A stretch of DNA of 64,000 nucleotides, from contig MGRG01000005.1 of the NCBI GenBank assembly GCA_001798075.1, forward strand, positions 1,148-65,147. The letters are read 5' to 3'. Source of the stretch: Deltaproteobacteria bacterium RIFCSPHIGHO2_01_FULL_43_49. Lineage in GTDB: Bacteria; UBA10199; SPLOWO2-01-44-7. Shown piece after piece: positions 8,853 through 63,408 of this stretch; the first letter of the stretch is position 1, and every line of letters begins with the position of its first letter. The notes beneath the pieces are model-generated. The model saw only the letters and a program-made list of their open reading frames with translations, ran no database searches and was not told the DNA's origin. A program made the translations under genes and the position numbers.

Positions 8853-8940
8853 AAAAGTAGTGGGTGGCCCGGAGTGTTTGTTGTGGGGTTTTGTTAGGGG
8901 CCCCCACAAAAACACGGAGGGACAGGACCCGCTACTTTTT
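8853..8940. repeat. MITE-like palindromic element, family 1, copy A
   Basis: Terminal inverted repeats AAAAGTAGTGGGT / ACCCGCTACTTTTT flank an internal hairpin GTGTTTGTTGTGGGG...CCCCACAAAAACAC. The element is about 85% identical to the copy at 15005-15093. Confidence 0.6.
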
Positions 8941-13518: not shown

Positions 13519-13989
13519 ATGGCAAATAAAGAAATTATGGAAGGAGATGCAGCACCCGATTTTAAATTACCCGCGAATAATGGGGGAGAGGTCAGCCTAA
13601 CTAGTCTTAAAGGGAAATGGGTCGTTCTTTATTTTTATCCAAAAGACGATACCCCTGGCTGTACAAGAGAGGCTTGTAATTTCCGCGACACCAAAACAAA
13701 ATGGACCAAAAAAGGAGCAGTGGTTTTAGGGGTCAGTAAAGACAATGCTGCCTCTCACCAAAAATTCATCGATAAATATAATCTCAATTTTCTTTTACTC
13801 TCCGACATCGATGGGAAAGTGATCGAAAAATATGGGGCCTTCAAAAAGAAAAGCATGTTCGGAAAAACATTTTTAGGAATTAACCGCTCTACTTTTTTAA
13901 TCAACCCCGAAGGAAAAATCCAAAAAATTTGGCGCAGCGTCAAAGTCGACGGGCATGAAGAAGAGGTGTTAAAGGAAATTGGCGGTTGA
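13519..13989 (+). CDS. bcp: peroxiredoxin Bcp (thiol peroxidase)
   Basis: VVLYFYPKDDTPGCTREAC is the Bcp/PrxQ active-site motif. The gene is preceded by a GGAGG Shine-Dalgarno. Confidence 0.9.
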   Translation: MANKEIMEGDAAPDFKLPANNGGEVSLTSLKGKWVVLYFYPKDDTPGCTREACNFRDTKTKWTKKGAVVLGVSKDNAASHQKFIDKYNLNFLLLSDIDGKVIEKYGAFKKKSMFGKTFLGINRSTFLINPEGKIQKIWRSVKVDGHEEEVLKEIGG

Positions 13990-14997
13990 GTTTCCTATCC
14001 GTACTTCCTTAAGACTTAAAGAGGCATAACGAATATAACCTAGTGCAATAGGACTGCTGAATTTCGGTGAAAAGCAGCTTGAAGTGACGGTCCCAATTTC
14101 TTGGCCATCTTCTGAAAAAATCTTTTCTCCCCTTTGTGGGATTTTATCACCTTCCAATTTCAATGATCTTAACTGTTTTCCAACATGTCCTCGGTGCTCC
14201 AACCTTGCAATCACCTCTTGACCCACATAACAACCTTTGTTGAAGCTCAGCGCCGTATAGAGATTAGCTTCCTGCGGAATCGTATTTTCATCCATATCAA
14301 CACCAAACAAGGGCGTGGCCGATTCGATGCGAAGGACTTCTTGGGTTTCTGGATCCAACTCTGGAACGTTCAGTTTTGATTTTAAACTGGGTAGTTGATC
14401 ACGAGCCACCCACATTTCAAACGCCGGCAAACCCCACATTGTTTTTCGAATCATCCAAATTTTAAACCCCTCCCACTCCACGAAATCGTAATCATAATTT
14501 GCACGGAGAGAAAGAGTCGGGTCCTGCCCCTCCGTGTTGCCATGGGGGCCCCTAACAAAACCCCATGGCCAACACTGCGGGTCACCCAACCCTTTCTCTC
14601 CATTCACTTTGGGTCCAATCACCGCACAAGTCCCCCATTTGTCTGTCTGATCAAACAATTCCACTTTTTGAAAAATGATATATTTTTTGAGCGTTTCTAA
14701 AAGAGTCAGTTTGAGTTTCGAGCTACAATCAATCCCAAAATAGTTTTCGCTGCGCCCGCCAGGTTGTAGTGGAGGGCAGTTATAACAAAATAAGTCGGCA
14801 ATCATTTTCCCTTTGGGTGTGCAAAGACAGGAGTAGCAACCTGTTTTGGGCTGGAGAGTCTGAATATTGTTGGTGAGAATGCCGTTTAAAAATTTTTTAG
14901 AATCGCCCCCCTTCACTTCAACCCAACAACGATCAGATAGATCCACAAGACCCATATTTTGTGTAACTTGATTGTATATTTCTGAATGCATGTTCAA
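13969..14997 (-). CDS. folate-binding YgfZ-like / aminomethyltransferase (GcvT) family protein carrying an in-frame repeat-derived insertion
   Basis: The C-terminal KGCYVGQE motif is typical of YgfZ/GcvT. The internal segment GLGDPQCWPWGFVRGPHGNTEGQDPTLS is encoded by a copy of repeat family 1. Confidence 0.65.
   Translation of the reverse strand: MNMHSEIYNQVTQNMGLVDLSDRCWVEVKGGDSKKFLNGILTNNIQTLQPKTGCYSCLCTPKGKMIADLFCYNCPPLQPGGRSENYFGIDCSSKLKLTLLETLKKYIIFQKVELFDQTDKWGTCAVIGPKVNGEKGLGDPQCWPWGFVRGPHGNTEGQDPTLSLRANYDYDFVEWEGFKIWMIRKTMWGLPAFEMWVARDQLPSLKSKLNVPELDPETQEVLRIESATPLFGVDMDENTIPQEANLYTALSFNKGCYVGQEVIARLEHRGHVGKQLRSLKLEGDKIPQRGEKIFSEDGQEIGTVTSSCFSPKFSSPIALGYIRYASLSLKEVRIGNSTANFL
14519..14596. 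repeat. family-1 palindromic element, degenerate copy B, inside a CDS
   Basis: gggtcctgcccctccgtgttgccatgggggcccctaacaaaaccccatggccaacac aligns to the reverse complement of the copy A/C cores. The terminal inverted repeats are degraded. Confidence 0.5.
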
Positions 14998-15004
14998 AAA
15001 AAAT

Positions 15005-15093
15005 TAAAAAGTGGCGGGTGGCCCGGAGTGTTTGTTGTGGGGTTTAGTTAGGGGCCCCCACAAAAACACGGAGGGACAGGACCCGTTACTTTT
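15005..15093. repeat. MITE-like palindromic element, family 1, copy C
   Basis: aaaaagtggcgggtggcccggagtgtttgttgtggggtttagttaggggcccccacaaaaacacggagggacaggacccgttacttttt is near-identical to copy A. Confidence 0.6.
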
Positions 15094-15148
15094 TACTCCA
15101 CTCATATCCTTGTTTTCTACACTGTTTTCCGTTAAATCGTCAACGTTC

Positions 15149-29351: not shown

Positions 29352-32072
29352 ATGGCACTCAGGAAGATCCTTCTTGTTTTTGGGAGTGTCTTGTTGTGGA
29401 CACTTCTCACCGGCGCTAACAAGACAGAGGACTGCCTGACATGCCATGAAGACAAGGCTCAATATAAAGAGTCTGTTCACGGGAAATATACCTGCTTTGA
29501 GTGCCATGCCGATCTGGCCAATGTGGCCCTGCCCCATGAAGCCGTCAAACCGGTTTCCTGTGTCCGCTGCCACACTCAAGTTGCCAATGTCTACCAACAA
29601 AGTTTGCACGGCAAAGCTGTCCAGGCGGGAGAAAAACTGGCACCCAAATGCCAAGACTGCCACGGAAGCCATGACATTAGTCTCGTCCGATCGCCCCATT
29701 CTAAAGTAGCCAAGTTTAACGTCCCCTTTGTGTGTGGTAGGTGTCACAAAGAGGGGAGCGAAGTCACCCAGACCTACGACATCCCCCAAGAAAAAATCCT
29801 GGAACACTATTCGGAAAGTATTCATGGCGAAGGGTTGTTCAAACAGGGATTGACAGTCACCGCTGTTTGCACCGATTGCCATACCGCTCACAACATTCGT
29901 TCCCATACCGATCCCCAATCCTCCATTTTCAGGGACAATGTTCCAAAAACCTGCCAGAAATGCCACGGACTCATCGAACGGGTTCACCGAAAGGTAATCC
30001 GGGGAGAATTGTGGGAAAGGGAACCCAACAAAGTTCCAATTTGTGTCGATTGTCACTCCCCGCACAAGATCCGCAAGGTTTTTTACGAACTCGGGATGGC
30101 GGATCATGACTGCCTGGAGTGTCATAGCAAACTTGATATTTCAACTACGCGTAATGGAAAAACGGTCTCTCTTTTTGTTGACGCAACGCAAGTGAAAGAA
30201 TCCATTCACAACAAGGTGGCTTGTGCCCAGTGTCATACGGGTGTCTCTCCAGTGGAAAAAAGGCCCTGTGCAACGATTACCACCAAGGTCGATTGTTCGA
30301 TTTGCCATGCGGAGCAAGTTCAAACCTATGTAACCAGCAAACATGGCCAACTCAGCTCTGAAGGAGATCCCAACGCCCCTGTTTGTCAGGACTGCCACTC
30401 TCCTCACTCCGCGAAAGGACATCGTGACCCTCAGTCCCCGACGTTTCCCACGAAAATACCTGAACTTTGTGGACAGTGCCACCGAGAAGGCAAGAAAGCA
30501 GCCATCCGTTATACTGGGGAAGAACGTCAGGTTGTGGAACACTATATGGAGAGTATTCACGGCAAAGGGTTGTTAAAAAGCGGCCTGGTCGTGACGGCCA
30601 TGTGCACCAACTGCCATACCGCCCATCATGAACTTCCTGCGAGTGATCCTCAGTCCAGCGTTCACCATGACAATATTGCAAAGACTTGTGCCCAATGTCA
30701 CAACGGAATTTATGAACAGTTTGTGAAAAGTGTTCATAGCCCAACCATCACCAAGACAGACAAAAAACTGCCGGTCTGCAGTGATTGCCACACCGCCCAC
30801 ACCATCAGCCGAACCGATGTAGAAGCTTTTAAACTGGAAATTATCAATCAGTGCGGTCAGTGCCATGAAGCGGTCGCCAAAACCTATTTTGAAACCTTCC
30901 ATGGAAAGGTTTCAAAACTTGGCTACACCACCGTTGCGAAATGTTATGACTGCCATGGGGCCCACGATATTCTCCCCCCATGGGATCCCAAATCGAGGCT
31001 CTCGAGAGCCAACATCGTCAAGACCTGCGGTAAATGTCATGAAGGCTCCCACAGAAGGTTTGCCGGATACCTAACCCACGCCACACACCATGATCCCGAC
31101 AAGTACCCGATTCTTTATTACACCTTTTGGTTTATGTCCTTCCTGCTGATCAGTGTCTTTATCTTTTTTGGTCTGCACACCCTCATGTGGTTGCCAAGAT
31201 CGATTAAGGAAAGGAGGCGACGCAAAAAACTGGGGCTCGAATACTCCGGAAAACATGTCGTTCGTTTTAGCAAGCTGGAGCGAAGACTCCATGCCATGGT
31301 CATTATCAGTTTCTTAGGGCTCGTGATAACGGGAATGACACTTAAGTTTTCTTATGCGGGATGGGCCCAGTGGATTTCCAAAGTTTTGGGTGGGTTTGAG
31401 TCAACCGGTTATATCCACCGCATCTGTGCCATCGTCACCTTCTTTTATTTTAGCGCCCATCTGGTCGACCTCGTTCGAAAAAAGAGGAAACTGAAAAAAA
31501 CCTGGAGAGAGTTTTTATTTGGCCCAGACTCGATGATTCCCATGAAGCGGGATTTGAAGGAGTTTTGGGAAACGATGAAATGGTTCGTCGGCAGAGGATC
31601 CAGGCCTATTTATGGACGTTGGACCTACTGGGAGAAGTTCGACTACTTTGCCGTTTTTTGGGGTGTCGCTATCATTGGCTCGACCGGTTTATTGCTCTGG
31701 TTTCCGGAATTTTTTACCCACTTTTTACCGGGCTGGTTTATCAATGTGGCCACCATTATCCACTCCGATGAGGCCTTGCTGGCCGCCGGCTTTATCTTCA
31801 CCATCCATTTTTTTAACACCCATTTCCGCCCGGAAAAATTTCCAATGGACACGGTGATCTTTACCGGCAGAGTTCCCTTAGAAGAGCTGAAAGAAGATCG
31901 CCCACAAGAATATAAAGAGTTGGTCGAATCGGGTGAATTGGAAAAATTATTAGCTCCCCCTCCAACAAAGTTGTTCGTTCGTCGGGCAAAAATTTTCGGG
32001 GCCATTGCGTTGGCAATTGGACTGACGCTGGTTGTGCTCATCATCCTAGCGGAGGTCTTTGGATATCGTTGA
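29352..32072 (+). CDS. giant multihaem cytochrome c (19 CxxCH) fused to a C-terminal HydC/FdnI-type membrane cytochrome b domain
   Basis: I counted nineteen CxxCH motifs in residues 1-590. The C-terminal ~300 aa have four to five TM helices with the b-type cytochrome signature VRFSKLERRLHAMVIISFLGLVITG (R-x-x-ER-x-x-H...TG) and further conserved His residues in the helices. Confidence 0.8.
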   Translation: MALRKILLVFGSVLLWTLLTGANKTEDCLTCHEDKAQYKESVHGKYTCFECHADLANVALPHEAVKPVSCVRCHTQVANVYQQSLHGKAVQAGEKLAPKCQDCHGSHDISLVRSPHSKVAKFNVPFVCGRCHKEGSEVTQTYDIPQEKILEHYSESIHGEGLFKQGLTVTAVCTDCHTAHNIRSHTDPQSSIFRDNVPKTCQKCHGLIERVHRKVIRGELWEREPNKVPICVDCHSPHKIRKVFYELGMADHDCLECHSKLDISTTRNGKTVSLFVDATQVKESIHNKVACAQCHTGVSPVEKRPCATITTKVDCSICHAEQVQTYVTSKHGQLSSEGDPNAPVCQDCHSPHSAKGHRDPQSPTFPTKIPELCGQCHREGKKAAIRYTGEERQVVEHYMESIHGKGLLKSGLVVTAMCTNCHTAHHELPASDPQSSVHHDNIAKTCAQCHNGIYEQFVKSVHSPTITKTDKKLPVCSDCHTAHTISRTDVEAFKLEIINQCGQCHEAVAKTYFETFHGKVSKLGYTTVAKCYDCHGAHDILPPWDPKSRLSRANIVKTCGKCHEGSHRRFAGYLTHATHHDPDKYPILYYTFWFMSFLLISVFIFFGLHTLMWLPRSIKERRRRKKLGLEYSGKHVVRFSKLERRLHAMVIISFLGLVITGMTLKFSYAGWAQWISKVLGGFESTGYIHRICAIVTFFYFSAHLVDLVRKKRKLKKTWREFLFGPDSMIPMKRDLKEFWETMKWFVGRGSRPIYGRWTYWEKFDYFAVFWGVAIIGSTGLLLWFPEFFTHFLPGWFINVATIIHSDEALLAAGFIFTIHFFNTHFRPEKFPMDTVIFTGRVPLEELKEDRPQEYKELVESGELEKLLAPPPTKLFVRRAKIFGAIALAIGLTLVVLIILAEVFGYR

Positions 32073-33834
32073 TATGAGATTGAGAAACAAAATCTTTTTT
32101 GTGACGGCGTTATCAATTTTTTCTTGTTTCGGTTTTTTTTCTGCTCACGCTAACGTCCACGAAGGTCTTGAATGCAATGCCTGCCACTTAGGTGAGAAGG
32201 CTAAAGAAGGGGGCATGCCGCCGGCCAATTGTGTTTCGTGCCATGAAGAAGTCGGCAACCTTTTAAAAAACTCTCCCCATGGTCAGGCCTTTATGGCGCG
32301 ATTCAAAACGCCTACGGCCAGTTGTCTTGCCTGCCATGGAGATCCTCATGAAATTCTAAGTCATCAAGATCCCAACTCCAAAACATCCCGTGTAAATCAG
32401 CCGGCGACTTGTGGCGCTTGCCATGAACATCCTTCCGAAATACCCCCCCATCTTGCAAAAAGAATGCCCATCAAATCTTATTTTATCACCGTTCATGGAG
32501 AGACTGTCCGAAAGGGAAATTTAAACGCTGCCTCCTGTGCCGATTGCCACGGATCCCATGACATCAGACCCCCGGGAGATCCGGCATCCCGGATTTCCCA
32601 TGGACAAATCGTAACGACTTGCGGTCAGTGCCATCAGGAAGAGGCAAAGACATTCGGATCCAGTGTTCACGGTTTGGCTCTGACCCACGGTATGCGAGAG
32701 GCCCCAACTTGTACTGACTGCCATGGAGAACATACCATTCGTTTTCCAGAAGAGATCGCGTCATCCGTTTGGAAAGGGGCCATTACTAAAACCTGTTCCG
32801 GATGCCACTCTTCAGAAAAAATAGCGGCCAAATTCGGTTTGCCCATTGATCGGGTGCAGACCTTCCTGGATTCCTTTCATGGATTGGCGGGACAGTTTGG
32901 CGATTTGAAGGTAGCCAATTGTGCCTCCTGTCACGGTTGGCATGATGTCCTCCCATCCAGTGATCCAAACTCCCGTATCCATCCGCAAAATATTTCACAG
33001 ACTTGTGGTCAGTGTCACCCTCATGCCGGTGTGGTACTGACTTCCGGAAAAATTCATACGTCACTATCCAAGAAGGGTGAGGGAAGTTCTATTGCTGGCA
33101 TCATACGGTCCATCTATTTAATCTTGATCCCTCTGCTGATTGCAGCCATGTTTCTTCACAACCTTGCCGACTTCTTAAGAAAGGCCCTTGCACGAACCTC
33201 TTCAGTATCCATTCATGAAGATGAAATTTTACTGACCTCTTCCGAACGTCTTCAACATGGAGGGCTTGTCCTTTCCTTTGTGTTATTGGCCTACAGTGGA
33301 TTTGCACTGGAATATGCAAACGCCTGGTGGGCCTTGCCCTTTCAACTCTTAGGGGGAGAAGAGACAAGGCGCAATATTCACCGCGTGGCGGCTTTCATTT
33401 TTATTCTCGTCAGTTTTTTCCATATTTGGTACCTTTTCCTTACGAAAGAGGGACGCACAAGATTTAGAGCGATTCTTCCGGAAAGACGTGACTTGTCGGA
33501 TCCATTCAAGATGATTCTTTTTAACTTGGGGCTGCGTCGGGAACGACCCATATTGAAGCGCTTTTCCTACATTGAGAAAGCGGAGTATTGGGCGCTGGTT
33601 TGGGGCTCCATGATCATGGTTTTGACCGGTGCACTCTTGTTTTTTCACAATTTTGCGCTGACGACGTTTCCTCTATGGGTGATCGAGGTTTCCAGGGTTA
33701 TTCATTTTCTGGAAGCTGTTTTGGCGACTTTGGCCATTGTTGTCTGGCATTTTTATTGGGTCTTGTTTGATCCGGATGTTTATCCCATGAACTGGGCTTG
33801 GTTGACGGGACGAAAAAAACGACCTCCAAAATAA
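32059..33834 (+). CDS. multihaem cytochrome c (10 CxxCH) fused to a HydC/FdnI-type cytochrome b domain; paralog of the previous gene
   Basis: Ten CxxCH motifs precede a C-terminal TM domain (RLQHGGLVLSFVLLAYSGFALEY, HRVAAFIFILVSFFHIWYLF, IHFLEAVLATLAIVVWHFYW). The gene overlaps the upstream gene by 14 nt. Confidence 0.8.
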   Translation: MDIVDMRLRNKIFFVTALSIFSCFGFFSAHANVHEGLECNACHLGEKAKEGGMPPANCVSCHEEVGNLLKNSPHGQAFMARFKTPTASCLACHGDPHEILSHQDPNSKTSRVNQPATCGACHEHPSEIPPHLAKRMPIKSYFITVHGETVRKGNLNAASCADCHGSHDIRPPGDPASRISHGQIVTTCGQCHQEEAKTFGSSVHGLALTHGMREAPTCTDCHGEHTIRFPEEIASSVWKGAITKTCSGCHSSEKIAAKFGLPIDRVQTFLDSFHGLAGQFGDLKVANCASCHGWHDVLPSSDPNSRIHPQNISQTCGQCHPHAGVVLTSGKIHTSLSKKGEGSSIAGIIRSIYLILIPLLIAAMFLHNLADFLRKALARTSSVSIHEDEILLTSSERLQHGGLVLSFVLLAYSGFALEYANAWWALPFQLLGGEETRRNIHRVAAFIFILVSFFHIWYLFLTKEGRTRFRAILPERRDLSDPFKMILFNLGLRRERPILKRFSYIEKAEYWALVWGSMIMVLTGALLFFHNFALTTFPLWVIEVSRVIHFLEAVLATLAIVVWHFYWVLFDPDVYPMNWAWLTGRKKRPPK

Positions 33835-40164: not shown

Positions 40165-42669
40165 ATGTCTAATTTAGGCCCAGGCCGCAAGGTTTTTTTT
40201 GTGTTGGTTGGGCTTTTTTGTTTCCTCATTTTTTCCTTTGGTTGTGGCGAGAGAAAACCAAGTACCAAGTCTCAGACTCAGCAAGGAGCTGGGGGAGAAG
40301 GAACTCCTGGTGAGGGTCTTGCCCCTCCCGCTATTTTTCCTCATTCCGAAAACTGGGCAAGTCCTATCGATCACGGTGTGTGGACGGCACAAAATGGTTC
40401 TGAAGTTTGCTTGAACTGTCATAAAATAGAATCGGCTCAGGTAGAAACGCCCCCGACTTGTCACTCTTGCCACAAACTTTTTCCCCACCCAGATACTTGG
40501 GTCAAAAAAGAAAATCATGGGTCTTTTGTTTTGACCAATGGAAAAGGAAGCTGTGCGACCCAGTGCCATGGCACCGATCTCAATGGCGGCCTTTCAAAAC
40601 TTGCTTGTGATTCGTGCCACGAAATCTATCCTCACAAACAAACCTGGATAGTTCCTGCGGAACATGGAGCGGCTGCTGAGGGAAATGGAAAACTTAACTG
40701 CAAAGGATGTCATGGTGATGATTTTCGCGGTGGTCTCAGTGGAAAAAGTTGCTACGAGTGTCACGAGTTATTTCCCCACGAGAAGGGCTGGTATGATCCA
40801 CAGAGGGTACAACAAAAACATCGCGATTTTGTGATGGCAAACGGAACAACCAGTTGTGCCACCCAATGCCACGGAACCGATTTGGGCGGGGGACTTTCGG
40901 GAAGGTCCTGTAATGAATGTCACCAATGGCTCCCCTGGTTCCCTCATCCTGAAGGTTGGAAGGATTATGAAGGCCACGGAACCTATGTTTTGCAAACCTT
41001 GGGTAATGACAAAACCAGTTGTAAGTTATGTCATGGAAACGATTTTCTAGGTGGGTTTTCGGGAGTTTCCTGTTCCAATTCCAGTTGTCATTCTAATTAT
41101 CCCCATGACCCTGCCACTTGGGGCCAGGCGGCAAACCATGGTCCTCCGGCTTACGGAGCAGGCAAAACCAGTTGCGCAACGGCCAATTGTCATGGGACAG
41201 TCTTTCAAGGGAGCCAATATCAAGTTAGTCCAGGCAATCCTCTAGCACCCTCTTGCTTTAATTCTGGTTGCCACGCCGATTTTCCCCACATCGATCCAAA
41301 GTGGATGACCCCTGACAAAACAAACAATGCAGTAACGAGGGATGAAAGTTTTCATGGGGATCGATTCATCAGACAAGTGCAAAGGGGAGTTGTCACCTGT
41401 ACCGGCTGCCATGGGATTAACTACGACCGCGTCGTTGGGGGATACCAGTGCACGGCTTGCCATGCAGATGGTATCACCCACAAGATCATAGGAACAGCAA
41501 CTTGGTCTAGCGGATTAGGGCATGGAAAGTTTTTTTCAAATCGTGGTTTCCTCGCAATAGATACTTCTGTCCGTTGCTGGGACTGTCATGGAAGCCCTGT
41601 TATTTTTGACAAAACACAAACAAGGCCATTTTTAGAAAACCAATCCGATTGTTATCGCTGTCACTTTGCCTATCCTCATAAAGGCTATCAGGATCAGGAT
41701 TTACTTACATGGGAGCCTGTCAATATCAATGTTTGTGGTACCAGAAATTCCGCAAATGCGCCGGCCCACTATTTTTACCTATTCGAAAATCCTTTAAGCG
41801 TGGATGTTAGTAATACCTGCGGCGGCGGGACAAATGGGTCCTGTCATTCCAATGGTTATCGAGCCTATCGTATCGAAGGTTTCTCCGGTTTTGCTCCTTG
41901 TAATTATTGTCATGGACAAAGCAACCCGCCTCCTCCACTGCCAGATTGTGCCGGACCCCCTCCATCGAACCTCCAAAATCCAGGTGCCCCGACAATTACA
42001 AGTATCTATCCGGCGCGTGATGAAACAAGTGTCTTAGTTGGATCGGCTATAAGAATACAATTTAGCGAGGCAATGGAGACGGCAAGCATTACTCAAACAG
42101 GGACATTCGTTCTCAGGCAAGTTGGGCGACCCGATTCCATCATGGCAAATATAGTTTGCAGTAACGATTGGTGCCGACAAGCAAGTTTAGTCCCTGCAGC
42201 ACAACTGCTTCGTGACACTTTATATGAAGCCACGGTGACAACTGCCACCAAAGACTGGGGAGGGACCGCTATGGCAGCTGATTATAGTTGGACTTTCAGG
42301 ACAGAGTTGCCAGATACGACTCCCCCTCTCATTGTTTCCACTATCCCAGCAAGCGGAGCAGTGGACGTGCCTCGGGGAAGATATATTTACGTCACTTTCA
42401 ATGAACTCGTAAATCAATTCTTCATCAGGGACTCCATCAAGGTAAAGAATTTAACAACTGGAGGGGCCATTGCAGGGGCAACAGGTTGTTCAAGTGCAGT
42501 AGTCAGTAATGGTTGCACAACAGTACGTTTTCAACGAAACACCACGGCAAGTTACGATACGGAGTATGAAGTGAGGGTTTTGACAATTGTGAGAGATTTG
42601 TCAGGCAACCCCCTCCAATCAGAGCATCGCTGGACTTTCAGAACAGCAGAAGCACCACCCGGACCTTAA
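40165..42669 (+). CDS. lipoprotein multihaem cytochrome c with repeated dihaem modules (non-canonical CX3CH/CX4CH) and C-terminal Ig-like domains; probably cell-surface
   Basis: The lipobox is FSFGCGE. The repeating unit is [C-x2-CH]-x2-[FY]PH-x3-W-x~6-HG-x~8-NG-x3-CATQCHGTDL-GGLS. There are about 16-18 haem motifs, including CATQCH twice and CSNSSCH, CATANCH and CFNSGCH. The last ~220 aa resemble bacterial Ig-like beta-sandwich domains (TITSIYPARDETSVLVGSAIRIQFSEAM..., LIVSTIPASGAVDVPRGRYIYVTFNELV...). Confidence 0.7.
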   Translation: MSNLGPGRKVFFVLVGLFCFLIFSFGCGERKPSTKSQTQQGAGGEGTPGEGLAPPAIFPHSENWASPIDHGVWTAQNGSEVCLNCHKIESAQVETPPTCHSCHKLFPHPDTWVKKENHGSFVLTNGKGSCATQCHGTDLNGGLSKLACDSCHEIYPHKQTWIVPAEHGAAAEGNGKLNCKGCHGDDFRGGLSGKSCYECHELFPHEKGWYDPQRVQQKHRDFVMANGTTSCATQCHGTDLGGGLSGRSCNECHQWLPWFPHPEGWKDYEGHGTYVLQTLGNDKTSCKLCHGNDFLGGFSGVSCSNSSCHSNYPHDPATWGQAANHGPPAYGAGKTSCATANCHGTVFQGSQYQVSPGNPLAPSCFNSGCHADFPHIDPKWMTPDKTNNAVTRDESFHGDRFIRQVQRGVVTCTGCHGINYDRVVGGYQCTACHADGITHKIIGTATWSSGLGHGKFFSNRGFLAIDTSVRCWDCHGSPVIFDKTQTRPFLENQSDCYRCHFAYPHKGYQDQDLLTWEPVNINVCGTRNSANAPAHYFYLFENPLSVDVSNTCGGGTNGSCHSNGYRAYRIEGFSGFAPCNYCHGQSNPPPPLPDCAGPPPSNLQNPGAPTITSIYPARDETSVLVGSAIRIQFSEAMETASITQTGTFVLRQVGRPDSIMANIVCSNDWCRQASLVPAAQLLRDTLYEATVTTATKDWGGTAMAADYSWTFRTELPDTTPPLIVSTIPASGAVDVPRGRYIYVTFNELVNQFFIRDSIKVKNLTTGGAIAGATGCSSAVVSNGCTTVRFQRNTTASYDTEYEVRVLTIVRDLSGNPLQSEHRWTFRTAEAPPGP

Positions 42670-42736
42670 CTGATCCAAATCATGTCCTCATAACTTCCCA
42701 TTTCTGCTATTTTAACCCTCAGATTTTGGAGAGAGA

Positions 42737-44332
42737 ATGGGGGAAAAAAGGCCTTGGGGTTTTTTAAAGATTGCTCCTTTTGGATGCCTTTGTCTGACCC
42801 TGGCCTGCGGCGAAATAAAACCAATCACAGACGCAGCAGCACAACTAGAAGAAGAAAGTAATGCTACCCCCAAAGTAGAAAGCCTCTTACCCCCATCTGA
42901 AACGATATTTCCCCATTCAAAAAGCTGGTCGGATCCCGTGGTACATGGGGCATGGACCATACAAAACGACTCCGATGTTTGTTTTCAATGCCACCAAAAA
43001 GATTTAGGGGGGATGGGAGGAGCCCCCGCCTGTCATTCCTGTCATCCACTTTTCCCCCATCCTGATGGGTGGGTTAAAAAAGAAAATCATGGTTCTTGGG
43101 TGTCTGCCAACGGAAAGGAAAATTGCGCTACTCAGTGTCACGGCACCGACTTCAAAGGGGGGCTTTCAAAAGTCTCGTGTGAATCCTGTCATGCGATCTA
43201 TCCCCACATGGTGACCTGGACCAATCCTGTAGAGCATGGGGCGGTTGCGAAAGGAGACGGCAAAGCGATTTGTATGAATTGCCACGGTAACACAAGCTGT
43301 TATGCGTGCCACGAAAAATACCCCCACGAAACGGGGTGGGCCGACCCTTTAAAACATGGGAAGGATGTCACTCAAAATGGCACAAACGGTTGTGCCACCC
43401 AGTGTCACGGAACCAATCTGAAGGGAGGACTGTCAGAGGTCTCCTGCGATAATTGTCATGCGAGTTATCCTCATCTTGATAACTGGAGGGATCCCACTCA
43501 ACACGGAACGGCGGCCTTAGGAAATGGTAAAACCAGTTGCGGGACAGCCAATTGTCACGGGAGCGACTTTAAGGGAAGCCTAAAAGCCCCATCCTGTTTT
43601 TCTTGTCACGCCGATTTTCCTCATACTAGTTCTCGTTGGATGACACTGAAGCCGACGACGAGTAAAACTTCTGATCGCGATGAAGGTTTCCACGGAGACC
43701 GATTCATACGGATGCAAATGTCGGGAAAGACGGGTGCTTGCGCCGAATGTCACGGTGCAAACTATGACCGTTTGATCGGTACCGGCCAATGTACGAATTG
43801 TCATCCCAATGGTGTTACCCATCGAAATACAACCCAAACAACCTGGTCTTCTTTTACGCACGGGCAGTATTACACAAGTTTCTTCAATTCCATTTCAACG
43901 AATGCCAACTGCAAGGATTGTCACGGAGGCTTTGTCGATTTCACAGACACCCAGACAAAACTCTCTTTGGAAAGTCAGTCGGGCTGCTACCGCTGCCACT
44001 GGGCTTATCCTCATAGGGCCTATGAAACTCCGATCTGGCATGAGATTTGGGAGCCCGTCGTCGCGAATAACTGTGGTGGAATGGCAAATTCCGGACACCT
44101 CCTCTATCTGACGGGGAGTTCACTCTTCACGGATGAACAAGGAAGGCGACCGACCAGCACGAACGATCCGATCAGCATCGGCGCCATCAAACATACCTGC
44201 GGCGGGTCGGCCGGTTCCTGCCATTTCAATGGTCTTCGCTCCTATAACACGCAAGCAACCTCGGCATTGTGCGGGCAATACTGTCATAGTTCAACAATGC
44301 CTTCCATCCCATCGCGGCCCCCTTGCCCTTAA
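42737..44332 (+). CDS. lipoprotein multihaem cytochrome c, paralog of the previous gene (same dihaem module repeats)
   Basis: The lipobox is LTLACGE, and the same modules recur (CFQCH...CHSCHPLFPHPDGWVKKENHGSWVSANGKENCATQCHGTDFKGGLSKVSCESCHAIYPH...). CX4CH variants CGTANCH and CGGSAGSCH are present; the 531 aa product has no Ig-like tail. Confidence 0.7.
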   Translation: MGEKRPWGFLKIAPFGCLCLTLACGEIKPITDAAAQLEEESNATPKVESLLPPSETIFPHSKSWSDPVVHGAWTIQNDSDVCFQCHQKDLGGMGGAPACHSCHPLFPHPDGWVKKENHGSWVSANGKENCATQCHGTDFKGGLSKVSCESCHAIYPHMVTWTNPVEHGAVAKGDGKAICMNCHGNTSCYACHEKYPHETGWADPLKHGKDVTQNGTNGCATQCHGTNLKGGLSEVSCDNCHASYPHLDNWRDPTQHGTAALGNGKTSCGTANCHGSDFKGSLKAPSCFSCHADFPHTSSRWMTLKPTTSKTSDRDEGFHGDRFIRMQMSGKTGACAECHGANYDRLIGTGQCTNCHPNGVTHRNTTQTTWSSFTHGQYYTSFFNSISTNANCKDCHGGFVDFTDTQTKLSLESQSGCYRCHWAYPHRAYETPIWHEIWEPVVANNCGGMANSGHLLYLTGSSLFTDEQGRRPTSTNDPISIGAIKHTCGGSAGSCHFNGLRSYNTQATSALCGQYCHSSTMPSIPSRPPCP

Positions 44333-61326: not shown

Positions 61327-62085
61327 ATGGAACCATTTGACACATTTTACAATATTCCCTATAGCTTCGGCTCCATGATTAAATCTCCTTCATTGAATTG
61401 TCAAACCTGCAAAAGCAGGGGACAGAGCGTTTTTTGCGATTTGAGCGAGGATCATCTTAAAGAAATTGATGCCTGTAAAACAACCAATAAGTACAAAACA
61501 CATCAAATCATCTTCTACGAAGGGAACAAACCCCATGGTCTTTACTGCGTTGCCTCCGGAAAGGTGAAAGTTTACAAAATGGATAAAGAAGGTCATCAGC
61601 AAATTGTGCGTCTTGCGGGACCGGGAGATATTGTGGGCTACAGAAGTCTTTTGGCCGATCAAAACTACTCCGCGACTGCGGAAACTTTGGAAGAGGCCGA
61701 TATCTGTTTCGTCGATAAAAAAACTTTTTTTCATGTTTTGGAAACGCACCCCGTAACGGCGTTTCATGTCATGTCTGCTTTGGCTCAAGACCTTGAAAAG
61801 GCGGAAAAAAAATTGATCGACATGGCCCACAAAAATATTCGAGAACGACTGGCGGAATTGCTACTGGTTTTTCAGAAAAAATATGGGGAAAAGTCTGGAA
61901 ACGGAGTTCATCTTAAAATCTCGCTGACCCGCGAAGAACTGGCAGAAATGATCGGCACCACACAAGAATCGGTCATCCGTTTAATTACGGAATTCAAAAA
62001 TGACGGGCTCATTCAAGTCGATGGTCGTGACATTACCCTTCTGAATGTCAAAAAGTTGGTCGAGACAGCAAACCTCCCGGAGTAA
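61327..62085 (+). CDS. Crp/Fnr-family transcriptional regulator with N-terminal Cys cluster (FNR-like)
   Basis: The N-terminal NCQTCKSRGQSVFC is followed by a cNMP-binding-like beta-barrel and a C-terminal HTH (LTREELAEMIGTTQESVIRLITEFKNDGLI). The start may be the internal Met at 61375. Confidence 0.8.
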   Translation: MEPFDTFYNIPYSFGSMIKSPSLNCQTCKSRGQSVFCDLSEDHLKEIDACKTTNKYKTHQIIFYEGNKPHGLYCVASGKVKVYKMDKEGHQQIVRLAGPGDIVGYRSLLADQNYSATAETLEEADICFVDKKTFFHVLETHPVTAFHVMSALAQDLEKAEKKLIDMAHKNIRERLAELLLVFQKKYGEKSGNGVHLKISLTREELAEMIGTTQESVIRLITEFKNDGLIQVDGRDITLLNVKKLVETANLPE

Positions 62086-62289
62086 TCAAAACTGATTTAT
62101 ATCATATCCTCGCCTGATCTTGCGCATAGTCATTCTTTTTGTCCTCCCTTAAAAGTTAACTCATCCCGAACCCCCTTTTTCTAAAGATCCTTAGAATCCA
62201 TGAAAGGGGAGTCGAAAAGGTAGGGTTGGAAACGACTTTGCCTCCCGAACTCGCCAATGTTTTAGTGGCGGGGAAATTGGAAAGGGAAG

Positions 62290-63408
62290 ATGACAAATTC
62301 TGACTTAACGAGAAGATTCCCATCTGGGGTGAATGCGTCTGGCTCTGCCAGCGCAGAGGGGGCCCAGCGGGCCCCCTCTTTGATCGATTCTTTTGGCCGC
62401 ACCATTGATTATTTGCGTATTTCCGTCACCGATCGGTGTAATTTTCGCTGTGTCTATTGCATGCCGCCCGAGGGGATACCCAATCTTTCTCATAACGATG
62501 TCTTAACATTTGAAGAGATCGCCCGGATCGCCCGGATTTTTTTACAAATGGGTGGGAAAAGGCTTCGAATTACAGGGGGCGAGCCCCTGGTTAGAAAAAA
62601 TATCATCGAGCTGGTTTTTCAATTATCCAATCTGCCCGGGCTTGAAAGTTTGGGCCTGACCACGAATGGTTTTTATCTCAAAGAGTTTGCCAAATTCCTA
62701 AAGGAGGCGGGGCTCAAAAAAATCAATGTGAGCTTGGATAGTGTCAGGCCAAGCCGTTTTTCTGAACTGACCCATTGTCCTCAAGGGGTGAATGCGTCTG
62801 GCTCTGCCAGCGCAGAGGGGGGCCAGCGGGCCCCCTCTTCATTTGAAAAAGTTTGGGAAGGGATTGAAGAAGCTCTCTTTGTTGGGCTTCAGACAAAAAT
62901 CAATGTGGTTGCCTTGAAAGGCATTTCAGAAGAAGAAATTCTTTCTTTTGGCGAGATGGCGAAAAGACTTCCCGTCGAGGTTCGATTCATTGAGTTCATG
63001 CCCCTTTGTGGAACCGGTTGGCACCCGGAATGGATGATCCCTCTAAGGGAGATTCGAAACGCCCTGAACTCAAATTTCGAACTGTTGCCTCTACCCAGGG
63101 GAACCGAAGTGGCTGAGTCTTATCAGGTCAAGAAAGGCCGTGGGAGGATTGGATTCATTTCCTCCATGACGGAACCATTCTGTAAAAACTGTTCACGCCT
63201 TAGGCTTACTTGCGATGGAAAAATCAGACCGTGTCTTTTTTCAAATTTGGAAATCGATTTAAAATCGTGGCTCCGCGGGGGCTGGCCCGATACGGACATC
63301 ATGGCGACGATCCTGGAGGCCGTCCGTGCGAAACCTTCCGGCCATCATATAACGTTTCCAATACCGGACGCGCGCGAGTTGCCGCGCATTCGCTTTATAG
63401 GGGGATAA
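62290..63408 (+). CDS. moaA: GTP 3',8-cyclase MoaA (radical SAM) carrying two in-frame copies of a palindromic repeat
   Basis: IDYLRISVTDRCNFRCVYCMPPEG (CxxxCxxC), GGEPLVRKN and a C-terminal ...CxxC...RLTCDGKIRPCLF are MoaA motifs. The 20-aa segments GVNASGSASAEG[AG]QRAPS occur twice, encoded by a 55 bp DNA repeat. Confidence 0.85.
   Translation: MTNSDLTRRFPSGVNASGSASAEGAQRAPSLIDSFGRTIDYLRISVTDRCNFRCVYCMPPEGIPNLSHNDVLTFEEIARIARIFLQMGGKRLRITGGEPLVRKNIIELVFQLSNLPGLESLGLTTNGFYLKEFAKFLKEAGLKKINVSLDSVRPSRFSELTHCPQGVNASGSASAEGGQRAPSSFEKVWEGIEEALFVGLQTKINVVALKGISEEEILSFGEMAKRLPVEVRFIEFMPLCGTGWHPEWMIPLREIRNALNSNFELLPLPRGTEVAESYQVKKGRGRIGFISSMTEPFCKNCSRLRLTCDGKIRPCLFSNLEIDLKSWLRGGWPDTDIMATILEAVRAKPSGHHITFPIPDARELPRIRFIGG
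62326..62380. repeat. palindromic repeat family 2, copy 1 (in or just 5' of moaA)
   Basis: ggggtgaatgcgtctggctctgccagcgcagagggggcccagcgggccccctctt contains a perfect 10-bp stem, GAGGGGGCCC-agc-GGGCCCCCTC. Confidence 0.55.
62785..62840. repeat. palindromic repeat family 2, copy 2 (in-frame inside moaA)
   Basis: ggggtgaatgcgtctggctctgccagcgcagaggggggccagcgggccccctctt is near-identical to copy 1. Confidence 0.55.

What the first reader, a model, noticed from the sequence alone, without database searches (positions are those of the whole stretch)
62326..62840. A second palindromic repeat family occurs twice in frame within moaA
A 55 bp unit (ggggtgaatgcgtctggctctgccagcgcagagggggcccagcgggccccctctt) with a perfect GAGGGGGCCC/GGGCCCCCTC stem appears at the 5' end of moaA and again ~460 bp downstream, both times in the same frame. 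It encodes GVNASGSASAEG(A/G)QRAPS. The second copy interrupts the conserved MoaA core between the radical-SAM domain and the C-terminal Fe-S domain. The first copy may instead be 5'-UTR if translation starts at the TTG (L-I-D-S-F-G-R) just after it. An essential radical-SAM enzyme tolerating a 20-residue palindrome-derived insertion is notable.
Basis: seen in the sequence. Interest (0 to 1): 0.7.

Follow-up and report, generated by a model that had tools for sequence, protein, structure and literature searches.

The report
Hairpin DNA inserted twice in moaA
A 55-base, GC-rich, hairpin-forming piece of DNA sits twice, in the same reading frame, inside the molybdenum-cofactor gene moaA of an uncultivated aquifer bacterium, adding two floppy 18-19-residue segments that the enzyme seems to tolerate; this kind of event is real but already known from other bacteria.

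Summary
A 55-nt unit occurs at 62326-62380 and 62785-62839, with 54 of 55 bases identical. Both copies are in the same strand and frame of moaA (62290-63408). The unit is 73% GC in a 45% GC window, folds into two hairpins and has sharp boundaries. Copy 2 is an exact 57-nt insertion: two orthologues carry the uninterrupted site (CAA|TTTGAAAAAGTTTGG), and 113 of 114 orthologues have no residues there. Copy 1 lies 36 nt after an ATG that abuts a Moco riboswitch (RF01055, 52.6 bits) and matches the orthologues' ATG ACA start, so copy 1 is most likely translated and not 5'-UTR. The same 372-aa protein is on 19 contigs, so this is not an assembly artefact. I read it as selfish, REP/RPE-like palindromic DNA inserted in frame. 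That it belongs to a repeat family is unproven. There is no third copy in 82 kb of the genome, none in the collections I could scan, no target-site duplication and no terminal inverted repeats. Genes hit twice by intragenic palindromes are documented. Verdict: a new member of a known kind, of moderate interest.

The parts
62152..62303 (+). Moco (molybdenum cofactor) riboswitch aptamer. Its 3' P1 strand GGAAAGGGAAG holds the Shine-Dalgarno-like sequence and runs into the moaA ATG.
   Evidence: Rfam RF01055, 52.6 bits (gathering score 36), E=1.8e-11, full model 1-135. The same riboswitch is present upstream of orthologous moaA in L003 (63.8 bits) and L004 (61.1 bits).
62290..63408 (+). moaA (GTP 3',8-cyclase), 372 codons from ATG 62290, carrying both inserts.
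   Evidence: TIGR02666 333.5 bits (cut-off 284), matching residues 31-359. S. aureus MoaA 1TV7 E=1.9e-62. Model TM 0.84 to 1TV7/2FB2. All three CxxxCxxC cysteines (C50, C54, C57), the C-terminal cluster cysteines (C298, C301, C315) and the GG tail are invariant columns. ATG ACA is shared with the orthologue starts.
62326..62380 (+). Copy 1 of the 55-nt unit, codons 13-30 (GVNASGSASAEGAQRAPS), in the N-terminal tail 36 nt after the start codon.
   Evidence: The MoaA family model starts only at residue 31. Orthologue tails before DSFGR are mostly 5-6 residues, against 32 here. pLDDT is 42-70 with no secondary structure.
62335..62354 (+). Copy 1, hairpin 1: GCG-t-CTGGC / tct / GCCAGCGC (8 pairs, one bulged T).
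   Evidence: RNA fold. It persists as an independent module when the leader is folded as a whole.
62355..62379 (+). Copy 1, hairpin 2: perfect 11-bp stem AGAGGGGGCCC / agc / GGGCCCCCTCT.
62380..62382 (+). TTG used as the start codon in NCBI annotations (342-aa product). Its first base is the last base of copy 1 and it lies 1 nt after the hairpin-2 stem. It is probably an internal Leu codon.
   Evidence: P0121 = residues 31-372 with M1. The sequence shows no purine-rich Shine-Dalgarno sequence upstream.
62785..62841 (+). Copy 2: a 57-nt insertion (55-nt unit 62785-62839 plus CA; the register is ambiguous by 1 nt), codons 166-184 (GVNASGSASAEGGQRAPSS), inside the radical-SAM barrel domain.
   Evidence: Empty sites in L003 and L005 read ...CAA|TTTGAAAAAGTTTGG..., as in the window's flanks. 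113 of 114 orthologues have no residues here. It is a coil between helices 154-161 and 184-197 at pLDDT ~70. The only amino-acid polymorphism among strain variants (A175V) is inside it.
62814..62838 (+). Copy 2, hairpin 2, with one stem mismatch (C->G at 62822).

Best explanation
The two copies are insertions of a short, GC-rich, double-hairpin piece of selfish DNA of the REP / MITE / Rickettsia-palindromic-element kind. They landed in moaA in an open frame and have been kept because they are harmless there. Copy 1 sits in the unstructured N-terminal tail, 36 nt after the riboswitch-controlled ATG. Copy 2 sits in a surface connection between two helices of the radical-SAM barrel. Both are transcribed and translated as part of MoaA, as the Gly/Ser/Ala-rich, linker-like peptide GVNASGSASAEG(A/G)QRAPS. 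Of the five open frames of the unit, this is the only one without Cys or Trp, which would explain why both surviving copies share strand and frame. Shown here: both copies are real, both are in frame, copy 2 is an insertion relative to the orthologues with an exact empty site, the composition is foreign, the unit forms hairpins, its boundaries are sharp, and the start codon can be placed. Inferred: that the unit is or was mobile and has other copies elsewhere in the genome, that the second copy arose by a local hop from the first, that both are translated, and that the enzyme is active.
For: Two copies, 54/55 identical, 0 of 100 shuffles. 73% GC against 45%. Two stable hairpins. Flanks unrelated (p=0.23 and 0.46). 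Exact empty site in orthologue DNA, and 113 of 114 orthologues lack any residue at site 2. The MoaA model starts after copy 1. The riboswitch 3' end abuts ATG 62290 and orthologues share the ATG ACA start. The model has pLDDT 90.7 with both inserts as low-confidence coil and TM 0.84 to solved MoaA. All catalytic cysteines and the GG tail are intact. The complete Moco operon and a molybdopterin oxidoreductase lie downstream. The identical protein is on 19 contigs. The only amino-acid polymorphism is inside copy 2, and the only difference between the copies breaks the stem of copy 2, as expected for unconstrained DNA. Another orthologue (P0016) tolerates an unrelated 7-aa insertion in the same loop. 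Precedent: intragenic REPs and RPEs encoding 20-30 aa, with some genes hit twice (PMC3733652; PMC10969869).
Against: No third copy is present in 82.3 kb of contiguous genome. There are no copies in the GTDB representative genomes, the JGI metagenome contigs or IMG/VR. No protein among 1.84 billion representatives carries the peptide. None of these collections holds the source genome, however, so the census is not decisive. There are no terminal inverted repeats and no target-site duplication. The inserted length at site 2 is 57 nt but only 55 nt are shared, and the two extra bases differ between the copies. Two copies placed at random in 82 kb would lie within 459 nt of each other only about 1% of the time (my calculation), so something other than random transposition is involved, such as a local hop, copying or selection. 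No transposase was linked to the unit.
Confidence: 0.55

Rival explanations
1. Orphan insertion plus intragenic copy. A single piece of foreign or filler DNA entered moaA once. It was then copied to the second site in the same gene by a non-transpositional route, such as template switching at the hairpins, ectopic gene conversion or break repair that captured a nearby sequence. On this reading there is no repeat family in the genome.
For: Only two copies are known, and both are in one gene 459 nt apart. There is no TSD and no TIR, and the 2 unshared extra bases at the junction resemble repair-type junctions. The copies are 98% identical. Nothing similar was found in any collection.
Against: There is no microhomology at the junctions and the flanks are unrelated. 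The origin of a 73% GC double hairpin in a 45% GC genome remains unexplained. The census covered only about 82 kb of a multi-megabase genome. The unit shows no significant similarity to native sequence at site 1 in the orthologue L004 (p=0.37).
Confidence: 0.27
2. Copy 1 is not coding. Translation starts at TTG 62380, as in the NCBI annotation, and copy 1 is a 5'-UTR insertion between the riboswitch and the gene.
For: NCBI records annotate a 342-aa product from this TTG. The MoaA family model and most orthologues begin within a few residues of this point. The literature warns that N-terminal intragenic REPs are often misannotated extragenic ones (PMC3733652).
Against: The riboswitch's Shine-Dalgarno-bearing P1 strand directly abuts ATG 62290, which is homologous to the ATG ACA start of L003 and L005. 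The 90 nt between the ATG and the TTG are in frame and free of stops, although one forward frame of the unit contains a stop. The TTG has no Shine-Dalgarno sequence and starts 1 nt after an 11-bp G+C stem. Prodigal-type callers used by JGI and ENA chose the ATG.
Confidence: 0.12
3. The hairpins are functional cis-acting RNA elements that have been recruited by the gene. For example, they could act as pause or terminator-like structures that are melted by translating ribosomes but stop transcription or recruit RNases when the Moco riboswitch shuts off translation, sharpening the OFF state. Alternatively they could stabilise the mRNA.
For: Both copies are in the one riboswitch-controlled gene. 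Hairpin 2 followed by a T-rich tail passes a crude terminator scan at copy 2. The hairpins fold independently of the aptamer.
Against: None of 114 orthologues, including those with the riboswitch, has them. The stem of copy 2 already carries a disrupting mismatch and a polymorphism. The U-tracts are poor. There is no Rfam match to the unit at E<=1. Terminator-like hits are no more frequent than in shuffled sequence (3 against 2.3).
Confidence: 0.05
4. Assembly artefact: a collapsed or duplicated repeat, or a misjoin.
For: Short repeats can mislead assemblers, and the source is a metagenome scaffold.
Against: The identical 372-aa product is on 19 contigs from different assemblies and samples, and in four NCBI MAG records. 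The two copies differ by one base. The 404 nt between them and both flanks are colinear with orthologous moaA. A strain variant has a SNP in copy 2 only.
Confidence: 0.01

Closest known systems
Rickettsia palindromic elements (RPEs; Ogata et al. 2000, 2002, as summarised in PMC10969869)
   Same: Palindromic selfish DNA inserted in frame into housekeeping genes. The element is read in a consistent frame to give a conserved peptide, and insertion sites are compatible with the protein fold.
   Different: RPE-1 elements are about 100-150 nt, come in many copies per genome in an AT-rich obligate intracellular alphaproteobacterium, and form recognised families. Here the unit is 55 nt, GC-rich in a 45% GC free-living aquifer bacterium, and only two copies are known. 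Sequence similarity to RPEs was not tested.
Intragenic REPs: GTAG- and CGTC-tagged palindromic repeats (Di Nocera et al. 2013, PMC3733652)
   Same: Short G+C-rich stem-loops found inside known genes and encoding about 20-30 aa when present as dimers. Some genes are interrupted twice at different sites (R. conorii uvrB, Thioalkalivibrio uvrA, O. terrae uvrA). N-terminal cases raise the same annotation question. REPs have no TIR or TSD.
   Different: The unit has no terminal GTAG. A CGTC is present (unit nt 11-14), but it is internal to hairpin 1 and includes a bulged T. The stems (8 bp with a bulge, and 11 bp) and the 3-nt loops do not fit the CGTC families, which have 8-9 bp stems starting with A-T pairs, 4-5-nt loops and a CCA tail. 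The two hairpins are unrelated to each other, so this is not a REP homodimer. Copy number is unknown.
Coxiella QMITE1/2 and intragenic ERIC elements (PMC5896051; PMC10969869)
   Same: Small non-autonomous repeats that overlap ORFs and contribute amino acids to host proteins.
   Different: Those are MITEs with terminal inverted repeats. They mostly affect the 3' ends of genes and are present in tens of copies. This unit has no TIR, and one copy sits in the middle of a catalytic domain.
IS200/IS605-derived hairpin elements (PATEs) and REPs mobilised by RAYT tyrosine transposases
   Same: Sub-terminal hairpins instead of TIRs and no target-site duplication, which matches the anatomy seen here.
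   Different: No shared 4-5-nt target motif lies next to the two copies. No Y1 transposase was identified in the 82 kb; the only transposase seen is an IS110-family gene upstream of the window.

Membership tests
MoaA, GTP 3',8-cyclase (TIGR02666) | Score above the curated equivalog cut-off; N-terminal CxxxCxxC radical-SAM cluster; C-terminal three-Cys cluster; C-terminal Gly-Gly | tested here: met
   333.5 bits against a cut-off of 284.05. C50, C54, C57, C298, C301, C315, G371 and G372 are invariant in 115 sequences. TM 0.84 to 1TV7.
Moco riboswitch (Rfam RF01055) | Covariance-model score above the gathering threshold, located upstream of a Moco gene | tested here: met
   52.6 bits against 36, full-length match at 62152-62303 directly upstream of moaA. 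It is conserved in two orthologous loci.
MITE | Terminal inverted repeats | tested here: not met
   The left end GGGGTGAATG and the reverse complement of the right end AAGAGGGGGC are not alike. The inverted repeats are two internal hairpins, not the termini.
MITE | Target-site duplication flanking each copy | tested here: not met
   I compared the window with the exact empty site of L003 and L005. No 2-4-nt direct duplication fits in any register at site 2, beyond a single ambiguous A. None fits at site 1 in a way that also gives an in-frame insertion length: the TG pair flanking a 54-nt core would add 56 nt.
MITE / REP (any dispersed repeat family) | Many dispersed copies in the genome | not testable with these tools
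   Only 82.3 kb of the genome could be reached, and it holds 2 copies, both in moaA. The source genome is absent from genome contigs and metagenome contigs: the positive control failed.
REP (GTAG- or CGTC-tagged superfamilies, PMC3733652) | GTAG or CGTC tetranucleotide at one end of a single 5-13-bp stem-loop; for CGTC, an 8-9 bp stem beginning with A-T pairs, a 4-5 nt loop and a CCA tail | tested here: not met
   There is no GTAG or CTAC in the unit. The CGTC at nt 11-14 is internal to hairpin 1. The stems and loops do not fit (sequence; criteria).
REP | Association with a RAYT (IS200/IS605-type Y1) transposase gene | not tested
   The window's ORFs were not screened systematically. Only an IS110-family transposase was seen, in L111.
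Rickettsia palindromic elements (as a functional class: protein-coding palindromes) | In-frame insertion into conserved protein genes, read in a constant frame, at positions compatible with the fold | tested here: met
   Both copies are in frame 1 of the unit. Copy 2 is in an inter-helix coil and copy 1 in the disordered N-tail. Orthologues lack both.
Rickettsia palindromic elements (as a sequence family) | Sequence similarity to RPE-1 to RPE-10 consensus sequences; about 100-150 nt (RPE-1) | not tested
   No RPE consensus sequences were available to compare. The length (55 nt) and the host lineage differ.

The most novel reading that the evidence does not exclude
The unit is not just tolerated junk. 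It would be a peptide-coding hairpin module that copies itself locally within a riboswitch-controlled gene and has been co-opted there. When Moco closes the riboswitch and ribosomes stop loading, the two very stable intragenic hairpins become exposed and terminate or destabilise the transcript, so a purely translational riboswitch would also work at the RNA level. A weaker version is that this is the first glimpse of an RPE-like 'protein-coding palindrome' system in a free-living, non-alphaproteobacterial lineage, with many more in-frame copies elsewhere in the genome.
Probability: 0.08. Interest if true: 0.6.

Novelty: new member of a known kind. Interest (0 to 1): 0.35.

Why it matters
The case shows that a radical-SAM enzyme of the Moco pathway can carry a 19-residue foreign loop inside its catalytic barrel, plus an 18-residue addition to its N-terminal tail, apparently without loss. 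[quoted passage not shown] There is also a practical consequence: public annotations of this gene disagree by 30 codons (342 aa against 372 aa). The Moco riboswitch found here gives an independent argument for the longer form. The finding does not open a long-standing question, and its value would rise only if a genome-wide census showed many in-frame copies.

Tried and rejected
**Census by DNA**
- The hairpin pattern in the GTDB representative genomes gave only a chance hit in Luedemannella.
- A 20-mer shared by both copies gave 0 hits in JGI metagenome contigs, not even the source scaffold.
- A hairpin with a free loop gave 91 metagenome loci and 12 viral loci. None shares the unit's 5' half (best local alignment score 8 against the 29-nt half), and all sit in contigs averaging 66% GC, so they are generic palindromes.
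- The 5'-half pattern gave 0 hits in viral contigs.
- A search of plasmids found only chance 25-27-nt GC matches.

**Census by protein**
- The five open-frame peptides, both concatenated and as sharpened profiles, gave nothing. The tool also failed to recover the known positive P0001, so these negatives carry no information.
- An exhaustive HMMER search of a frame-1 profile against 1.84 billion representatives gave 0 hits. This is weak evidence, because proteins carrying an insert are rarely cluster representatives.

**Other ideas tested and rejected**
- That the duplication extends into the flanks ('SDLT..P' against 'SELT..P'): not significant (p=0.23).
- That the unit derives from native N-terminal sequence (L004 '...EAMRAP-IIDSFGR' against '...GAQRAPS-LIDSFGR'): not significant (p=0.37).
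- That the 27 nt before copy 1 belong to the element: they resemble L004's post-riboswitch tail by eye in the alignment (14 of 20 nt, not tested for significance), so they are more likely native.
- That P0016's insertion in the same loop is a remnant of the unit: its DNA is neither GC-rich nor palindromic.
- That empty-site alleles or the in-frame product of recombination between the repeats exist: none of 8 predicted sequences is in the 15-billion-protein collection.
- That the 88-nt palindromic family is related: it shares only GGGCCCCC with the unit.

Full report
**1. The observation**

The 55-nt unit is present at 62326-62380 and, with one mismatch, at 62785-62839. A search allowing up to 3 mismatches finds exactly these two places in 64 kb and none in 100 dinucleotide-preserving shuffles. 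The copies are 459 nt (153 codons) apart. Both start at codon position 1 of the long ORF 62290-63408, and they encode GVNASGSASAEGAQRAPS and GVNASGSASAEGGQRAPS.

Each copy folds into two adjacent hairpins. The first is GCG-t-CTGGC/tct/GCCAGCGC. The second is an 11-bp stem AGAGGGGGCCC/agc/GGGCCCCCTCT, perfect in copy 1 and carrying one mismatch in copy 2. The unit is 73% GC in a window of 45% GC.

Similarity ends abruptly at both ends of the unit. The 36 nt on either side are no more alike than random pairs from the window (p=0.23 and 0.46). Five of the unit's six reading frames are open.

**2. The gene and where the copies fall**

The ORF is MoaA. It scores 333.5 bits against TIGR02666 (cut-off 284), and the family model begins at residue 31, immediately after copy 1. 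S. aureus MoaA (1TV7) aligns at E=1.9e-62 with a gap at copy 2.

In an alignment with 114 orthologues of 46-73% identity, 113 have no residue between the positions of Q165 and F185. One orthologue, P0016, has an unrelated 7-aa insertion in the same loop.

At the DNA level, orthologues L003 and L005 read ...CAA|TTTGAAAAAGTTTGG..., which is exactly the sequence flanking the window's insert. Copy 2 is therefore a clean 57-nt insertion: the 55 shared bases plus CA, with a 1-nt ambiguity in register.

Pfam puts Radical_SAM at residues 44-220 and Mob_synth_C at 229-353.

An AlphaFold2 model built on the 115-sequence alignment has mean pLDDT 90.7. Residues 162-183 are coil at pLDDT ~70 between helices 154-161 and 184-197, and residues 1-30 are unstructured at pLDDT 42-70. 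The model superposes on solved MoaA with TM 0.84. The catalytic cysteines of both clusters and the C-terminal GG are intact. The rest of the Moco pathway (moaC/mog, moeA, moaD, moaE, mobA) and a molybdopterin oxidoreductase follow downstream.

**3. The start codon**

A Moco riboswitch (RF01055, 52.6 bits against a gathering score of 36, E=1.8e-11) occupies 62152-62303. Its 3' P1 strand, GGAAAGGGAAG, is the Shine-Dalgarno-like element and runs directly into ATG 62290. The same riboswitch precedes the orthologous genes in L003 (63.8 bits) and L004 (61.1 bits).

L003 reads GGAAAGGGATTCAG-ATG-ACA-CAA, and L005 (which has no riboswitch hit) starts ATG-ACA-AAC, against ATG-ACA-AAT in the window. ATG 62290 is therefore the ancestral, riboswitch-controlled start. 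An in-frame stop lies 9 codons upstream of it, so no earlier start is possible.

The alternative TTG at 62380 was chosen in four NCBI MAG records (342-aa P0121). It has no Shine-Dalgarno sequence and begins one base after the 11-bp G+C stem. I conclude, with about 85% confidence, that copy 1 is translated.

The 27 nt between the ATG region and copy 1 resemble L004's post-riboswitch tail by eye (not tested for significance), so they are probably native and not part of the insert. The length of the insertion at site 1 cannot be fixed exactly, because no orthologue has a matching empty site.

**4. Not an artefact**

The identical 372-aa protein is encoded on 19 contigs of up to 652 kb from several assemblies. 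Four NCBI MAGs carry the same gene. The copies differ by one base, and the gene is colinear with its orthologues across all junctions.

A strain variant (P0122) differs from P0001 by a single residue, A175V, which lies inside copy 2. No allele lacking either copy exists among about 15 billion proteins, and neither does the in-frame product of recombination between the repeats. The nearest MoaA after the 100% cluster is about 70% identical. The inserts therefore look fixed in the sampled population and younger than the split from those relatives.

**5. Is it a repeat family?**

I could not settle this. Across 82.3 kb of contiguous genome the only copies are the two in moaA, even at word size 7. 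That stretch is 8.8 kb upstream via L111, the window, and 9.4 kb downstream via L001.

The source genome is not in the GTDB representatives or the JGI contig collection, since the positive controls failed. Looser hairpin patterns returned only unrelated GC-rich palindromes. Peptide searches were blind to this low-complexity sequence. An exhaustive HMMER search of 1.84 billion representatives found nothing.

The unit has no terminal inverted repeats, no target-site duplication and no GTAG or terminal CGTC tag. It also has no Rfam match at E<=1 in the 61800-63000 scan.

Two features remain unexplained. First, only 55 nt are shared although 57 nt were inserted. Second, both known copies lie in one gene. 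By my calculation, two copies placed at random in 82 kb would be this close about 1% of the time, and they would share strand and frame 1 time in 6.

**6. Interpretation**

The anatomy fits selfish palindromic DNA that entered the gene in an open frame and survived because it lands in a disordered tail and a surface connection. The relevant features are foreign composition, sharp boundaries, stable hairpins, unrelated target sites, an exact empty site and decay of the stem in one copy.

Frame 1 yields a Gly/Ser/Ala-rich linker-like peptide, while every other open frame contains Cys or Trp. Selection on the encoded peptide can therefore explain the shared frame. The second copy most likely arose from the first by a local event.

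The main rival is an orphan insertion copied within the gene by a repair-type or template-switch mechanism. It differs only in whether other copies exist, and one BLAST against the full MAG would decide between them. A regulatory role for the hairpins is possible but has no support: orthologues with the same riboswitch lack them, and the stem of copy 2 is already degenerating.

**7. Comparison with known systems**

In-frame palindromic insertions are known:
- Rickettsia RPEs (reviewed in PMC10969869).
- Intragenic GTAG/CGTC REPs that encode 20-30 aa, including genes interrupted twice at different sites, with the same caveat about N-terminal cases (PMC3733652).
- Coxiella QMITEs (PMC5896051).

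The present unit behaves like these elements, but it meets neither the MITE criteria (TIR, TSD) nor the REP tag and geometry criteria. Its copy number is unknown. I therefore file it as a new member of the general kind 'protein-coding palindromic insertion' and not as a member of any named family.

**8. Verdict**

The feature is real and tidy, and it is useful for correcting the gene's start. It is not surprising to a specialist. Interest 0.35.

Noticed in passing
Its Shine-Dalgarno-bearing 3' strand abuts ATG 62290. It is conserved in orthologous loci L003 (36-186) and L004 (1083-1229).
   Followed up: yes
window 62290 against 62380: Public annotations of this gene disagree. JGI and ENA aa from the ATG, while four NCBI MAG records (OGQ06079.1, OGQ15330.1, OGQ27366.1, OGQ31847.1) aa from the TTG just after copy 1. 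The riboswitch and the orthologue starts favour the ATG.
   Followed up: yes
window 8853-8940, 15007-15094, 14518-14565: An unrelated 88-nt palindromic family folds as one whole-length hairpin (-44.6 kcal/mol). Two full copies are intergenic. A 48-nt, 90%-identical inverted fragment lies inside a GCV_T/YgfZ-like ORF (13972-14997, minus strand, about residues 145-160). Against PDB 1YX2 that segment aligns with only a 2-aa gap, so whether it is an insertion is unclear.
   Followed up: partly
L111 6529-7566 (about 1.3-2.3 kb upstream of the window start): There is an IS110-family transposase gene (DEDD_Tnp_IS110 + Transposase_20). At least one other assembly's scaffold (L112) ends about 2.3 kb upstream of the window's first complete gene, near this element, which suggests a repeated element that breaks assemblies. 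No link to the 55-nt unit was found.
   Followed up: no
L109 (P0016), the MoaA loop equivalent to window residues 165/185: A different orthologue carries an unrelated 7-aa insertion (SKGPLLG; DNA TCAAAAGGACCTCTTCTGGGT) at exactly the same loop. This shows that the position tolerates insertions in more than one lineage.
   Followed up: partly
L004 1229-1296: In this orthologue about 75 nt separate the riboswitch-adjacent ATGs from the conserved core. A second ATG, preceded by GAGG, lies just before 'RAPIIDSFGR'. The N-terminal region of moaA is evidently fluid in this clade, and its true start there is ambiguous.
   Followed up: no
window 61327-62085 (+): A Crp/Fnr-type regulator (cNMP_binding + HTH_Crp_2) lies directly upstream of the riboswitch and moaA. 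It is syntenic in orthologous loci L004 and L109, so the moa operon may have both protein and riboswitch control.
   Followed up: no
window 30852-32651 and 40459-43330: Direct-repeat families D2 and D5 are recurring CxxCH haem-binding motif codons (TGYnnnnnnTGYCAY), which indicates multihaem cytochrome genes. A 242-nt, 71%-identical duplication at 40451/43023 suggests paralogous cytochromes.
   Followed up: no
window 62812 region (residue 175 of MoaA): The only amino-acid difference among the strain variants of this MoaA (P0122, A175V; GCA->GTA would change G-C to G-U at the base of hairpin 1) lies inside copy 2. This is consistent with relaxed constraint on the insert.
   Followed up: partly
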